Source of the DNA: a virus
Taxonomy: Duplodnaviria > Heunggongvirae > Uroviricota > Caudoviricetes
Length of the DNA stretch: 26,902 nucleotides
Strand: one strand, 5' to 3'
IMG/VR virus record: IMGVR_UViG_2541047123_000048
Position numbers: made by a program. Positions 12,001 to 15,000 of this stretch are shown here, one piece after another; positions within the stretch are counted from its first letter, which is position 1; every line of letters starts with the position of its first letter.

Positions 12001-15000
12001 TAAAGCGACCACTGGACGGGTCAACACCGGACTGAGCAAGATTACCCGCCAGCTCCTTCCGTGCTTCGCCAAACTGTTTCTGATACCCCAGATTTGTGGT
12101 GCCAGCAATATTGTCGTACTGCTGCTCACTGTTCAGGTCATCGACCTTTTCCATGAAGTTATCTTCAGCCGGGCGGAGGATATTTTTGTAATCCTGCCAC
12201 CCTTTCCAGGCCACTTCTTCCTGTGCTATTTGCGCTGCTGTTGGTTTTACTTTGGTATCACCACCACCTTTACTTCCACCCATAATGGCCCCCTGGATAA
12301 TAAAAAAACCCTGCCGGAGCAGGGTCAGAATGTGAATTGCAATGTTGGTTTAAACACGATGATGAAAACTGTGGCAGTCAGACCGCTATCCTGAACACCA
12401 TGAAGCCATCCTCATCATCCGGCATTCGCTCAAAGCCCAGACGTTTTCCCAGCCGGATAAATCCCCGCCTTGCCGTATGAAATTCAGCCCAACGTCCGCC
12501 AGCCAGACGGGTTAATGTCTTCACCTCCGGCAGATAACGCTCAACACTGTTACTCCCCGTACACACGCCCAGCAACACCAGAACATAAGGGATACCATCA
12601 GCACTGAGCACAGAACGCAGCACCAGAAAGCCATCAGGTGCCTCAAAACAAAACGCCTGCTTTTTAAGGCAGGCGTCTTTAACTTCATTCATAAATTCAG
12701 GGTTGCGGGAATTTCTCACCACACGCTGCATATACCGGAGAATTTTATCGTTCATTCTCTCACCTGAAACGGGTGCCATATCGGCTGAACCTCAGCAACC
12801 AGTTGACGGGGACTTTCGTCCCCGCCGCGGTTTTCCTACTGCTTACACTGTAAGAACGCCGCAAACTCCGCTCCCCACAAATTCAGCCGGAACTCACACA
12901 ACGAGCCGTGTAACATCCAGATGGTGAAGATAACCGTCATACAAATTGTGACGGTGATAAGCGATTTTTGCGACATAGCGCTTGCCTCCTGAGTGGAGAG
13001 GCGCTAACCTTCTACTTGTCAAGGTACGAAGTGTTAGGGCCTCGGGTTAACGTTAAGTTGACTCGGGGCCTTTCCACATCAGGCCTTCAGGTTCACCCTC
13101 CAGCCATCAGCCGAAAGGCACCCACGCATAATTTACGGTTTTTGCCCTGTACGGGCAATAAAAAACCCGCCATCACAGCGGGTAGTAAACGGTTACCGGA
13201 TACAGGTTAGAATTTCAGGCCAATGCCAGCAGTAATTCCACTCGTGCGCCAGTCGCCAGAGCCGGAACCTTCGTAAGCCACATCCAGTGTAACACTCTCA
13301 TTCAGGTTAAACTGTGCACCTGCAGCCCACGCAAGGGAGTTTTTTTTCGTGCTGTTGCTTTCAGAAAATCCGCCACTACTGTTAATATTGTCCTTAATTT
13401 TCAGGTCAGCGCTAACTTTAGCAACGCCCATCCCTGCCATCGCATATAAGCTCATGTACTGATTAACCCGCCATGAAGGCCCCGCTAACAGACTCCAGTA
13501 ATTCGCCCTGATATCCGTTCTGGCAGAAGCTGCCGGATTCTTAATCTTCCTGGTATGATCGGCTGACTGCACATCAATAAATGTCTGTGAGTTAGTGAGA
13601 GAACGCGTCCATGTAAAAGAGGTGATAACGCCAAAATCATCCGTTATCTCGTAGCGATACCTGATATTAATGCCCTGTGGATTTTTATCCTTGCCTTCAT
13701 ATCCACTGACCCGACCATCTGTATATTCGCCCAATGAAGAAAAGTAGTTTCTGTTGACGAAATGACTGAAAGTCTCCCTGTTATGAGCAGTCGCATCCTT
13801 TACAAAATCCTTCAGTCCCGGAAACTGAAAGTGCGCATACCCCAGAGAAATTGTATGGTTTCCTTCTGCTGCATGTGCAGATAAATTTACACAGGCAATC
13901 CCGGAGATTGCACACACAACCAGTGTTGCTATACTCTTCATTTAAGATATCCTGTATTCAGATAACACGCTAAACTTTTTAATAATACATCTTTTTAGAC
14001 ATTTTAAATGAATATTAAAGACTCGCTTCAACTAATCATATACTGATGTATTAATAACCAAGACCTTATCTATATACGGCTTTCGAATATCCCATGTTGC
14101 ACCGCCGGAATAATGCTCACAGGAATATATTTTATTTCCTGTAGCACCAGTGGATGTGGTATAAATCGGTCGATCATAAGGAGTTCTTTTCCAGTTATAA
14201 TACCCGACCAGTGCAGGCATGATTGCGCATGGATATCCAAGGTCCTTTTCAAATTTGATATCAACAGGTATTAACTTCGCGTCAAGCAGCATCATTTCGC
14301 CATGATAAATCATCTCACCGTCCGGGTTATACATGGCGATACCATACTCAGAAGGTGGAGTAACCATATTCGCGAAAGCATAAACCGTCGTAACACCAGG
14401 GTTCGTTCCCCTGACAATTACATGAAGCCTTAGTGCATGATATCCATCAATCTGTTCATGCGTGTACATGACATCGGCCTTCTTCTCTGTTCTGATAAAG
14501 AAAAAACAACTTTTGCCTGACGGGATTGATGTTTTAAAAAAAGACTTTTCAGTCGCCGGTATGGTGCCTTTGTTGATCAGACACTGCGGCGTAAAACCTG
14601 GACTTATCCATACGCTGCCATCCGGCTTCATAATGCTCAAACCATACATGACACTTATCCCCAGAATGTATAAATATAAGATCCCATACCCTGCTCAAGA
14701 TTCGACCACGTCACCGTATTGCCATTAATGGTTATCTTCGGTACTTTCCGATCCGCAAATACATTATTCCAGGGAAATAAACAACATACAGCCTGCAATG
14801 ATTTCCCGTCGGGTTTATTCGTGTACGTCTTTGAGCCAGACTCCGCTGTAAATCTGTCCAGGAAAAATACCGGAGTCAGCACGCCCGTAACATTAACGTT
14901 ATTTCTGTTATAAATGGCAAAACCGTATTCCAATACTCACCTCCTGATCAGCGTAATCTGCCTATGCGAACAGCCAGTCGTCCATTCTGATCATAAACCT

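What the first reader, a model, noticed from the sequence alone, without database searches (positions are those of the whole stretch)
12836..13073. Unannotated Hok/Gef-like type I toxin gene with occluded Shine-Dalgarno, in the lom-adjacent cargo island
A 46-codon minus-strand ORF, below the ORF-track size cutoff, encodes MSQKSLITVTICMTVIFTIWMLHGSLCEFRLNLWGAEFAAFLQCKQ. That is a transmembrane helix followed by the SLCE...E-AAF-L-x-CK signature of Hok/Gef toxins. Its strong AGGAGG Shine-Dalgarno is buried in a hairpin that ends 1 nt before the ATG, the classic arrangement for a translationally silent type I toxin mRNA. Unlike canonical hok/sok loci, I find no overlapping mok-like frame: upstream frames hit stops within 15-45 nt. 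A strand-asymmetric 14-bp hairpin that forms only in plus-strand RNA (13038-13070, then UUU) is a candidate antisense-RNA 3' end. A prophage-borne type I toxin beside lom could act in prophage retention or abortive-infection-type defence.
Basis: partly seen in the sequence, partly recalled or inferred. Interest (0 to 1): 0.8.

Follow-up and report, generated by a model that had tools for sequence, protein, structure and literature searches.

The report
Prophage Hok toxin gene, already catalogued
The small gene next to lom in this Shiga-toxin prophage is a genuine Hok-family membrane toxin with its antisense-RNA control region; it is already annotated in RefSeq and this exact peptide has been reported toxic, so only its lack of the usual 'mok' leader gene is possibly new.

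Summary
A 46-codon minus-strand ORF (12976-12836) passes the Pfam Hok/Gef threshold. Its AGGAGG Shine-Dalgarno lies in a local hairpin. A hairpin that is much stronger in plus-strand RNA lies upstream.

The window is a 933W/Sp5-type Stx2a prophage. The gene is not new:
- RefSeq calls it 'Hok/Gef family protein' (WP_000078907.1).
- PHROGs places it in phrog_251.
- A 2025-26 preprint lists this exact CDS as Hok '72_1589'. It cloned the CDS and reports 42 of 45 tested homologues toxic; this one is not among the three non-toxic ones.
- It is distinct from the published hokW/mokW/sokW locus of the same phage family.

What I add comes from 24, then 123, unique related units in E. coli, Shigella and Salmonella prophage ends. 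The hok-mRNA architecture is conserved with compensatory changes: 5' tac pairs with 3' fbi or with ucb, and there is a 3' protective hairpin. A Sok-like antisense gene (about 13017-13073, plus strand) uses the same TAACCT -10 hexamer that was mutated to inactivate the sokW promoter.

No conserved mok frame exists, although the ancestral mok Shine-Dalgarno (CCGAGGC) is invariant.

Verdict: a real, ordinary hok/sok-type type I toxin-antitoxin module. It is already catalogued, and its mok-less wiring appears undescribed. Low to moderate interest.

The parts
13130..13158 (-). Putative hok-mRNA promoter: -35 TTGCCC (13158-13153), 17-nt spacer, -10 TAAATT (13135-13130). It sits directly after the lom terminator (13183-13165).
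   Evidence: Read. The +1 is fixed by the start of the Rfam hok-leader model and by alignment to the hokW leader. Relatives carry TAGAAT at the same place. The consensus scan did not call it, because it matches only 8 of 12 positions.
12771..13123 (-). Full-length hok-type mRNA core, from the 5' end GGGUGCC (13123) to the end of the fbi element (12771). In this Stx-phage context there is no terminator right after fbi.
   Evidence: The minimum-free-energy fold is closed by 5'-3' pairing, -152.2 kcal/mol, z = -5.4. Homology among relatives starts at the -10 and stops just after GGCACCC. Relatives have a canonical terminator about 30 nt after fbi, whereas here the next one is at 12671-12654.
13107..13123 (-). 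tac-like 5' element GGGUGCCUUUCGGCUGA. It pairs either with fbi (closed form) or with ucb (open form).
   Evidence: tac/fbi: helix 1 is 97.5% paired and helix 2 has 5 pairs with compensatory changes. tac/ucb: 92.6% paired, with 2 compensatory pairs in the same tac columns. Confirmed on 123 unique units.
13065..13074 (-). ucb-like element (GAAAGGCCCC). It pairs with the ex-mok Shine-Dalgarno in the closed form and with tac in the open form.
   Evidence: (predicted fold of the truncated mRNA).
13040..13043 (-). GAGG, homologue of the mok Shine-Dalgarno of hokW/R1, within the invariant CCGAGGC. No start codon follows it.
   Evidence: Alignment with hokW/mokW. Invariant columns. No conserved start or frame.
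12977..13006 (-). Shine-Dalgarno-sequestering hairpin. The outer stem is UAGCGC/GCGCUA, whose last pair uses the A of the AUG at 12976. The inner stem is UCUCC/GGAGG. Its 5' arm GCCUCUCC is the homologue of the dcb box of canonical hok mRNAs.
   Evidence: -15.0 kcal/mol. Outer stem 100% pairable in relatives (helix 7). The motif AGCCUCUUAC lies at the same place in hokW.
12985..12990 (-). hok Shine-Dalgarno AGGAGG, 8 nt upstream of the ATG.
   Evidence: The preprint's Table S2 lists GGAGG as the Shine-Dalgarno of 72_1589.
12836..12976 (-). hok-family toxin CDS, 46 aa plus stop. This is Hok cluster 72, sequence 72_1589, RefSeq WP_000078907.1.
12797..12832 (-). 3'-UTR stem-loop (AACCG ... GGCGGGGAC-GAAA-GUCCCCGUC ... 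UGGUU). It is the probable 3' end and protective hairpin of the processed, active mRNA.
   Evidence: -23.0 kcal/mol, z = -4.7. Five pairs show compensatory changes and 99.5% of cells are paired (helix 17). The role is inferred by analogy with R1.
12771..12788 (-). fbi-like element UCAGCCGAUAUGGCACCC, complementary to tac.
12982..13010 (+). Putative Sok-like promoter: -35 TTGCCT (12982-12987), 17-nt spacer, -10 TAACCT (13005-13010). It overlaps the hok Shine-Dalgarno hairpin on the other strand.
   Evidence: Same position and same -10 hexamer as sokW. The 'pro-less' mutation of sokW (AGGTTA changed, primer YO-421) abolished antitoxin activity. The hexamer is conserved as TAACCT or TATCCT in all relatives. 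The consensus scan did not call it.
13017..13073 (+). Predicted Sok-like antisense RNA of about 57 nt. It has a single-stranded 5' tail (13017-13035) and a 16-bp hairpin (13036-13072) followed by a short U-run.
   Evidence: The ends were transferred from the annotated sokW RNA through alignment A4. Fold: -31.3 kcal/mol, z = -5.7. The stem is conserved, with a GC/AU compensatory pair and an invariant U.G that makes it strand-specific. The antisense strand is more stable than the sense strand in all relatives.

Best explanation
This is a functional hok/sok-type type I toxin-antitoxin module carried as a moron between lom and the next gene of a 933W/Sp5-type Stx2a prophage. It belongs to a 46-aa Hok subfamily (cluster 72 of Escalera-Maurer et al.) that sits at prophage ends in E. 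coli, Shigella and Salmonella.

Proposed mechanism:
1. A stable mRNA starts at about 13123.
2. The full-length form is closed. The 5' tac pairs with the 3' fbi, the ucb box pairs with the ex-mok Shine-Dalgarno (GAGGC), and the dcb-like box GCCUCUCC pairs with the hok Shine-Dalgarno, so nothing is translated.
3. Slow 3' trimming back to the 12832-12797 stem-loop removes fbi. tac then switches to ucb.
4. GAGGC and the adjacent G-poor stretch are freed. They can now be bound by the short-lived Sok-like antisense RNA (13017-13073, plus strand), which leads to RNase III cleavage and decay.
5. If Sok has decayed, the freed GAGGC instead competes for the dcb box, or serves as a ribosome standby site. 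The strong hok Shine-Dalgarno opens directly, without a mok leader ORF.
6. The 46-aa peptide inserts into the inner membrane and kills or lyses the cell.

Shown here: family membership, the conserved and covarying RNA pairings, the absence of mok, and the homology of the Sok promoter and hairpin with sokW.
Shown by others: toxicity of this peptide.
Inferred: the transcripts themselves, 3' processing, RNase III involvement, how the hok Shine-Dalgarno is opened, and the biological trigger (prophage loss, prophage induction or superinfection).
For: - Family: Pfam HOK_GEF 33.2 bits, above the 22-bit cutoff. PHROG 251 E = 2.8e-24.
- Leader: the Rfam hok-leader model RF01794 aligns end to end at 12965-13123 (-), E = 2e-6.
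- Annotation: RefSeq 'Hok/Gef family protein' in O157:H7 genomes at 100% identity. 1674 of 5426 complete E. coli genomes hold a match.
- Toxicity: the exact CDS was cloned as pAZ3::72_1589. The preprint names only 19_179, 60_1482 and 69_1540 as non-toxic among 45 tested.
- Conservation: the 46-aa subfamily is conserved in 28 aligned proteins.
- Folding: the full-length mRNA has z = -5.4 with 5'-3' closure.
- Covariation on 23 distinct relatives: 85% of cells are paired, against about 40% when partners are slid. Compensatory changes occur in tac/fbi, in the 3' hairpin and in tac/ucb. This was repeated on 123 unique units.
- Sok: hairpin z = -5.7, strand-specific, conserved. Its -10 hexamer TAACCT is identical to the experimentally inactivated sokW -10.
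- Coupled change: in one lineage, ucb C to U, ex-Shine-Dalgarno G to A and dcb C to U occur together.
Against: - No transcript data exist for either strand.
- Both promoters match the sigma-70 consensus poorly in this window (8/12 and 7/12) and were not called by the scan.
- The Rfam hit (37.9 bits) is below the gathering score of 59. The NCBIfam Hok models are also below their cutoffs.
- The Sok hairpin is followed by only three U residues.
- The covariation largely contrasts two clades (E. coli-type and Salmonella-type), so there are few independent events.
- The ex-Shine-Dalgarno/dcb pairing rests on one lineage.
- Predicted ensembles do not show a clear opening of the hok Shine-Dalgarno in the truncated mRNA: unpaired probability goes from 0.34 to 0.36.
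- The canonical terminator found after fbi in relatives is missing here.
Confidence: 0.78

Rival explanations
1. Orphan toxin gene without a working antisense partner. The ORF encodes a toxic Hok peptide, but the plus-strand hairpin is only the mirror image of an mRNA structure. Expression would be held off solely by mRNA folding and weak transcription, as for the degenerate chromosomal hok copies of E. coli K-12.
For: The Sok promoter has only 7 of 12 consensus matches and was not called. The U-tract is short. There are no expression data. K-12 hokA shows that hok loci can persist in disrupted form.
Against: The antisense strand folds 8-16 kcal/mol better than the sense strand in nearly all relatives, the gap narrowing to about 4-6 kcal/mol in three of them, thanks to conserved U.G pairs that would be C.A on the mRNA. 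The -35/-10 arrangement and the hexamer itself match functional sokW. The segment facing the Sok 5' tail is the most variable part of the unit (column identity 0.72 against 0.83-0.87) and differs between tandem copies. That is what is expected of cognate antisense specificity.
Confidence: 0.12
2. Canonical mok-coupled regulation survives in this particular phage. The TTG at 13022 would start a 42-aa overlapping frame (13022-12894). That frame would act as mok, and the Sok 5' end would cover its start codon.
For: The ORF exists. Its TTG lies within the first 5 nt of the predicted Sok target. A few closely related contigs share it (L038, L044, L064).
Against: No Shine-Dalgarno lies within range of the TTG: the GAGG is 19 nt upstream. 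933W, L020 and most of the 63 unique leaders examined have TTAAGC or other sequences there, and stops in all frames. Indels that are not multiples of three separate the lineages.
Confidence: 0.06
3. Decaying relic: a remnant of a hok/mok/sok locus that lost mok and is no longer expressed or regulated in any useful way.
For: Loss of the mok start. Loss of the terminator after fbi in the Stx-phage context. Weak promoters.
Against: The ORF is intact in all 24 first-set units. The regulatory pairings are maintained by compensatory changes. The locus is present in 1674 E. coli genomes, with up to 10 places per genome. Relatives are amplified in tandem arrays. The peptide is toxic when expressed.
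Confidence: 0.04

Closest known systems
Hok cluster 72 (sequence 72_1589) in Escalera-Maurer et al., bioRxiv 10.1101/2025.08.07.668861; RefSeq WP_000078907.1; PHROG 251
   Same: Identical CDS and peptide. Annotated as Hok/Gef. Reported toxic on arabinose induction. The preprint also reports enrichment of hok in prophages.
   Different: Nothing differs at the gene level. That work states that it did not analyse mok, Sok or mRNA elements. The regulatory anatomy described here is therefore additional.
hokW/mokW/sokW of phage 933W and Sakai prophage 5 (Takada et al. 2021, PMC8621323)
   Same: Same phage family. The leaders are homologous: -10 TAGAAT, 5' GGGUGC, the ucb box, GAGGC, the AGGTTAGC Sok -10, and fbi followed directly by the next gene. 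sokW is a proven antitoxin that partly depends on RNase III and Hfq. HokW is made on prophage induction and doubles phage release.
   Different: It is a different locus, about 13 kb away in 933W at 58.4-58.7 kb, and is absent from this window. HokW has 51 aa and a different sequence (MKQQKAM...DYESEK). hokW has a 70-aa mokW, whereas this locus has none.
hok/mok/sok of plasmid R1 (parB), the paradigm
   Same: Same tac/fbi closure, the tac/ucb switch, the 3' protective hairpin, and an antisense RNA with a 5' tail plus hairpin transcribed from a promoter overlapping the hok Shine-Dalgarno region (mechanism summarised in PMC9841398; here).
   Different: In R1, hok translation strictly needs translation of mok up to the hok Shine-Dalgarno. 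Here there is no mok. The hok Shine-Dalgarno is a full AGGAGG, and the dcb homologue pairs with it directly. The peptide is 46 aa rather than 52. The setting is a prophage, not a plasmid.
hokA/mokA/sokA of E. coli K-12
   Same: Best NCBIfam match of the peptide (HokA equivalog NF007290, 38.4 bits). The peptides share a similar layout (MxQK...SLCE...AAFL.C).
   Different: The score is far below the HokA cutoff of 89 bits, so this is not a HokA orthologue. The hokA locus has an annotated mokA, a pseudogene in K-12 disrupted by IS150.
tisB/istR-1, a type I module with a ribosome standby site. This comparison comes from my own knowledge (Darfeuille et al. 2007) and was not checked here.
   Same: The toxin Shine-Dalgarno is locked in a hairpin. 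The antisense RNA binds far upstream (here 42-100 nt) of the start codon in an unstructured stretch. The active mRNA arises by processing.
   Different: There is no sequence relationship. Standby binding is only one possible way for this locus to do without mok and was not tested.

Membership tests
Hok/Gef toxin protein family (Pfam PF01848) | Score at or above the Pfam gathering threshold over the whole domain | tested here: met
   33.2 bits against a cutoff of 22, E = 4e-8, residues 8-44 on profile positions 6-42 of 42. PHROG 251 E = 2.8e-24.
Hok/Gef toxin protein family (Pfam PF01848) | Conserved residues of Hok peptides (M1, C16, T18, L30, C31, E32, E41 of the preprint logo) after an N-terminal hydrophobic helix | tested here: met
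   M1, C12, T14, L26, C27, E28 and E37 are present with identical spacing (sequence, logo). C27, G35-F38 and A39-K45 are invariant or nearly invariant in the subfamily.
Hok/Gef toxin protein family (Pfam PF01848) | Toxicity on expression | not testable with these tools
   Taken from the literature. The exact CDS was cloned as LRP157 (pAZ3::72_1589), and it is not among the three non-toxic constructs of 45 tested. Preprint, not verified here.
NCBIfam HokA equivalog (NF007290) and Hok subfamily (NF007279) | Score at or above the curated cutoff | tested here: not met
   38.4 bits against 89, and 22.7 bits against 73. The peptide is HokA-like but is not a HokA orthologue.
[quoted passage not shown] | hok mRNA leader matching Rfam RF01794 | tested here: inconclusive
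   Full-length alignment (model positions 1-157) at 12965-13123 (-), E = 2e-6, but 37.9 bits is below the gathering score of 59. Homology with the hokW leader is visible in alignment A4.
[quoted passage not shown] | Long-range tac/fbi pairing that closes the full-length mRNA | tested here: met
   Present in the minimum-free-energy fold. 97.5% and 79.8% of cells are paired in the two helices, with 5 compensatory pairs. On 123 units: TA96/CG20, CG95/GC20, GC89/AT20.
[quoted passage not shown] | Alternative tac/ucb pairing in the 3'-processed mRNA (coupled covariation) | tested here: met
   92.6% paired. Two compensatory pairs lie in the same tac columns that covary with fbi. The pairing is predicted in the truncated-mRNA fold of the window. 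There are few independent events.
[quoted passage not shown] | Antisense Sok gene: a promoter inside the hok leader, a 5' tail plus stem-loop, complementary to the leader | tested here: inconclusive
   The hairpin is strong, strand-specific and conserved. The -10 TAACCT is identical to the mutated sokW -10. The promoter was not called by the consensus scan, and no transcript evidence exists.
[quoted passage not shown] | [quoted passage not shown] | tested here: not met
   No conserved start codon follows the invariant CCGAGGC. Stops occur in all frames in most of 24 + 39 unique leaders, and indels shift the frame. The window's own TTG frame is lineage-specific.
[quoted passage not shown] | Stable toxin mRNA, unstable antisense RNA, RNase III cleavage of the duplex | not testable with these tools
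   Needs half-life measurements and an rnc mutant. Only the analogy with R1 and hokW is available.

The most novel reading that the evidence does not exclude
Cluster-72 Hok loci are a natural mok-less rewiring of the hok/sok switch.

The ancestral mok Shine-Dalgarno (invariant CCGAGGC) is kept, but not to translate a leader. It acts as an RNA switch element. Once released from ucb after 3' processing, it captures the dcb box (GCCUCUCC) that otherwise locks the strong hok Shine-Dalgarno. Alternatively it acts as a ribosome standby site.

Sok represses by sequestering this element rather than by blocking mok translation. The variable stretch facing the Sok tail would insulate paralogues that sit in tandem arrays or share a cell with hokW.
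Probability: 0.4. Interest if true: 0.45.

Novelty: already known. Interest (0 to 1): 0.27.

Why it matters
For a genome scan this is a correct call on a gene that public resources already hold. It should not be counted as a discovery.

It still matters in three modest ways:
1. 933W and Sp5 carry two different Hok modules, this one and hokW/sokW. The window's variant keeps only this one. Experiments that delete hokW-sokW to study Stx-phage lysis timing and phage yield have therefore left a second Hok toxin in place.
2. The subfamily is a recurrent cargo at prophage ends: beside lom in Stx phages, after ogr in P2-like prophages, and sometimes in 2-3 tandem copies. This fits the reported enrichment of hok in prophages, whose function is still unknown.
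3. The absence of mok together with retention of its Shine-Dalgarno offers a natural test of how much of the R1 paradigm (translational coupling) is really required for a hok switch.

Tried and rejected
- Identity with hokW-sokW: rejected. The primer-derived hokW start and leader are absent from the window. No Rfam sok hit reaches the gathering score anywhere in the window. HokW has 51 aa with a different sequence and lies 13 kb away in 933W.
- Identity with Salmonella hokST: rejected. That gene is on plasmid pCol1B9.
- A mok frame: I looked in all three frames of 24 and then 39 more unique leaders. Only sporadic, non-homologous ORFs were found.
- An 8-codon upstream ORF (13079-13053) preceded by an invariant AAGG: present only in the E. 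coli-type lineage, so not a family feature.
- Pairing of the 5' GGAGGG with the anti-Shine-Dalgarno as an activator: 94.8% pairable, but only one covarying pair. Kept only as a weak alternative.
- Thermodynamic test of Shine-Dalgarno opening in truncated versus full-length mRNA: no consistent change.
- PADLOC defence models for the peptide and its neighbours: no hits.
- The genome-contig scan gave only 7 loci. Several are evident contaminants labelled Xanthomonas, Vagococcus or Planococcaceae.
- Literature searches for a described mok-less hok locus found nothing relevant in the held library. That library lacks most subscription-journal papers, for example Pedersen & Gerdes 1999, Gultyaev et al. 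1997 and Fozo et al. 2010.
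Full report
**1. What is in the sequence**

AGGAGG lies at 12990-12985, 8 nt upstream of the ATG.

In the minimum-free-energy fold, this Shine-Dalgarno pairs with UCUCC. A second stem, UAGCGC/GCGCUA, closes the hairpin, and its last pair uses the A of the AUG. 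The isolated hairpin is moderately better than chance: -15.0 kcal/mol, z = -2.3, with 7 of 200 shuffles folding as well.

The upstream hairpin at 13036-13072 is very different on the two strands. As plus-strand RNA it gives -26.1 kcal/mol (z = -5.7). As minus-strand RNA it gives -11.9 kcal/mol (z = -2.0).

One detail needs correcting. The window does contain a TTG-initiated 42-aa frame (13022-12894) that overlaps the hok start.

**2. Where the window comes from and what is already annotated**

The 551 bases around the ORF are 100% identical to E. coli O157:H7 chromosomes (EC4115, TW14359 and others) and to Stx2a-converting phages such as PA28 and P27. They are 96% identical to 933W and VT2-Sakai/Sp5.

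The state of annotation is as follows.
- RefSeq annotates the ORF as 'Hok/Gef family protein' WP_000078907.1, between an Ail/Lom protein and a hypothetical protein.
- Some phage records call it 'small toxic polypeptide' or 'MokW-like host killing'.
- The original 933W record and the PA28 RefSeq record leave it out.
- 1674 of 5426 complete E. coli genomes hold a match, with up to 10 places per genome.

**3. Family tests**

| Library | Result |
|---|---|
| Pfam HOK_GEF | 33.2 bits against a cutoff of 22 |
| PHROG 251 | E = 2.8e-24 |
| NCBIfam HokA | 38.4 bits against a cutoff of 89 (below) |
| NCBIfam generic Hok | 22.7 bits against a cutoff of 73 (below) |
| Rfam RF01794 | 12965-13123 (-), model 1-157/157, 37.9 bits, E = 2e-6, below the gathering score of 59 |

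RF01794 is named sok, but it models the sense-strand hok leader. Its alignment places the mRNA 5' end at 13123.

**4. Literature**

The named hokW-sokW system of Sakai prophage 5 (PMC8621323) is a different gene. HokW has 51 aa and starts MKQQKAM. Its sequences are not in the window. In 933W it lies at 58.4-58.7 kb with an annotated 70-aa mokW and a 71-nt sokW, about 13 kb from the lom-adjacent gene.

- Its Table S2 lists the exact nucleotide and peptide sequence as 72_1589, from a high-abundance cluster. It was cloned as LRP157.
- The text says that 42 of 45 tested homologues were toxic and names the three that were not. 72_1589 is not among them.
- The same paper reports that hok is four-fold enriched in prophages.
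- It states that mok, Sok and mRNA elements were not analysed.

The toxin and its toxicity are therefore known. The regulatory anatomy has not been described in what I could search.

**5. Relatives and context**

A protein search gave 56 relatives from E. coli, Shigella and Salmonella. In 28 full-length members the motif GSLCE...GAEFAAFLQCK is almost invariant.

Their genes sit at prophage ends:
- beside lom in Stx phages;
- right after ogr/Delta at the end of P2-like prophages, often next to host genes such as serS or pheT;
- after tail-fibre genes.

In Salmonella they occur as two or three tandem units about 498 bp apart.

**6. RNA anatomy from comparison**

I aligned 24 unique units, taking 165 nt upstream to 100 nt downstream of each ORF. 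Similarity starts at a -10 box, which is TAGAAT in relatives and TAAATT here. It ends just after GGCACCC, about 66 nt past the stop codon.

I projected the window's minimum-free-energy fold (z = -5.4) onto the alignment. 85.4% of cells are paired, against 38-43% when the partners are slid.
- The 5' GGGUGCC pairs with the 3' GGCACCC (97.5% paired).
- The adjacent helix has five pairs with changes on both sides, for example CG16/UA7, GC16/CG7 and AU15/GC7.
- This is the tac/fbi closure of hok mRNAs.
- The 3'-UTR hairpin (12826-12805 within 12832-12797) has five compensatory pairs and is 99.5% paired.
- The outer stem around the Shine-Dalgarno is 100% pairable.

The same tac columns also covary with a second partner, GAAAGGCCCC at 13074-13065. 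That pairing is 92.6% paired with two compensatory pairs. It is the tac/ucb alternative of the processed mRNA, and the truncated-mRNA fold of the window forms it.

With 123 unique units from viral, genomic and metagenomic contigs, the counts hold.

There is a caveat. The variation mostly separates an E. coli-type and a Salmonella-type clade, so the number of independent events is small.

**7. The antisense gene**

On the plus strand, TTGCCT (12982-12987), a 17-nt spacer and TAACCT (13005-13010) occupy the position of the Sok promoter of R1 and of sokW.

Takada et al. inactivated sokW with primer YO-421. That primer replaces TAGGTTAGCC by CCGGCTCGCC, and so destroys the hexamer TAACCT on the sokW strand. 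This removed protection against HokW. The window carries the same hexamer at the aligned place. Relatives have TAACCT or TATCCT.

Transferring the annotated sokW ends through the alignment gives 13017 to 13073 on the plus strand. The RNA would have a free 5' tail of about 19 nt and a 16-bp hairpin (-31.3 kcal/mol, z = -5.7).

The stem base is conserved. It has one GC/AU compensatory pair and an invariant U.G. Each relative folds better on this strand than on the mRNA strand.

The mRNA segment facing the Sok tail is the least conserved part of the unit, with column identity 0.72 against 0.83-0.87 elsewhere. It is poor in G and differs between copies of a tandem array.

Weak points: the consensus scan did not call either promoter, and only three U residues follow the hairpin.

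**8. No mok**

In hokW, GAGGC is followed after 8 nt by the mokW ATG.

Here CCGAGGC is invariant, but no start codon follows it in any conserved position. Stops close all three frames within 6-45 nt of the hok ATG in most units. Lineages differ by indels that are not multiples of three. Thirty-nine more unique leaders from viral contigs give the same picture. The window's TTG frame is shared by only a few near-identical contigs and has no Shine-Dalgarno.

One defining component of the R1-type module is therefore absent. The locus works like hok/sok but is not a complete hok/mok/sok.

**9. How it most likely works**

By analogy with R1 (summary in PMC9841398) and with the pairings above, I propose this sequence.
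- The full-length mRNA is inert. It holds three pairings: tac with fbi, ucb with GAGGC, and GCCUCUCC with the hok Shine-Dalgarno.
- Trimming of the 3' end to the protective hairpin frees tac, which takes ucb. This releases GAGGC and the G-poor stretch.
- Sok binds there, and the duplex is destroyed. RNase III is inferred.
- Without Sok, GAGGC can pair with GCCUC. That box is the homologue of the dcb box, AGCCUCUUAC in hokW and R1. This loosens the hok Shine-Dalgarno.

The only lineage with a change in GAGGC (G to A) also has the matching C to U in ucb and C to U in the dcb-like box. This is suggestive, but it is a single event.

Predicted ensembles do not show a clear opening of the Shine-Dalgarno. 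A ribosome standby mechanism is an equally open alternative. This step is inference.

**10. Role**

The role was not tested. Three precedents exist:
- post-segregational killing;
- exclusion of T4 by R1 hok/sok;
- acceleration of lysis and doubling of phage yield by hokW-sokW on induction (discussion).

The position beside lom, directly after the lom terminator (13183-13165), suggests a moron expressed in the lysogen.

In this phage context the canonical terminator that follows fbi in relatives is missing. The transcript would run towards the next gene (phrog_610) until a hairpin at 12671-12654. hokW shows the same arrangement.

**11. Verdict**

The finding is a real hok/sok-type module, correctly read by the first stage. 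It is already annotated, placed in a phage protein family, and reported toxic. The mok-less wiring is the only part that may be new. Overall interest is 0.27. The mok-less switch reading has probability about 0.4 and would deserve about 0.45 if true.

Noticed in passing
window 18954-19070 (-) and 26196-26313 (+): Two ALIL pseudoknot matches (Rfam RF01497, 121.5 and 115.8 bits). They are the frameshift elements of IS3-family insertion sequences. They coincide with the ORF pairs 19025-19351/18138-19028 (-) and 25916-26242/26239-26628 (+), so two IS copies lie in the phage late region (PA28 annotation).
   Followed up: partly
window 12653-12676 (both strands): A strong bidirectional terminator-like hairpin (ACGCCUGC-CUUAAAAA-GCAGGCGU followed by U-runs) lies inside the coding region of the phrog_610 gene (933W L0129). 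It is the first terminator-like site downstream of the hok unit.
   Followed up: partly
window 12755-12779 (-): The RefSeq start of the downstream gene (ATG 12779, 133 aa) is probably 8 codons too long. The PHROG 610 profile aligns from residue 9, and phage P27 annotates the ATG at 12755 with its own ribosome-binding site. The extension overlaps the fbi element of the hok mRNA.
   Followed up: partly
L028 1505-2641, L031 2005-2641, L008 and L009 2501-3135: Tandem arrays of two or three cluster-72 hok units, about 498 bp apart, lie after ogr at the end of P2-like Salmonella prophages. The copies differ most in the stretch facing the Sok 5' tail.
   Followed up: partly
L034 1503-1892 (933W 58.4-58.8 kb): 933W and Sp5 carry a second, canonical hokW/mokW/sokW locus downstream of the giant L0134 gene. 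It is absent from this window and from the first 50 kb of PA28, so Stx2a phage variants differ in how many Hok modules they carry.
   Followed up: partly
window 13053-13079 (-): An 8-codon upstream ORF (AUG UGG AAA GGC CCC GAG UCA ACU UAA) follows an invariant AAGG and overlaps the ucb box. The AUG is present only in the E. coli-type lineage, not in the Salmonella-type units.
   Followed up: no
window 1155-9557 (-): A single 2800-aa ORF, the homologue of 933W L0134 (8.4 kb, hypothetical protein). Its function was not examined.
   Followed up: no
L016 2336-2400; L086, L195: Some copies have lost the promoter and tac region, where the 5' part is replaced by unrelated sequence, yet keep an intact ORF. 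These are degenerate units that could not form the tac/fbi closure.
   Followed up: no
L115, L116, L118: Contigs labelled Xanthomonas pisi, Planococcaceae MAG and Vagococcus sp. carry this E. coli/Salmonella prophage gene at 76-100% identity. They are most likely assembly contamination.
   Followed up: no
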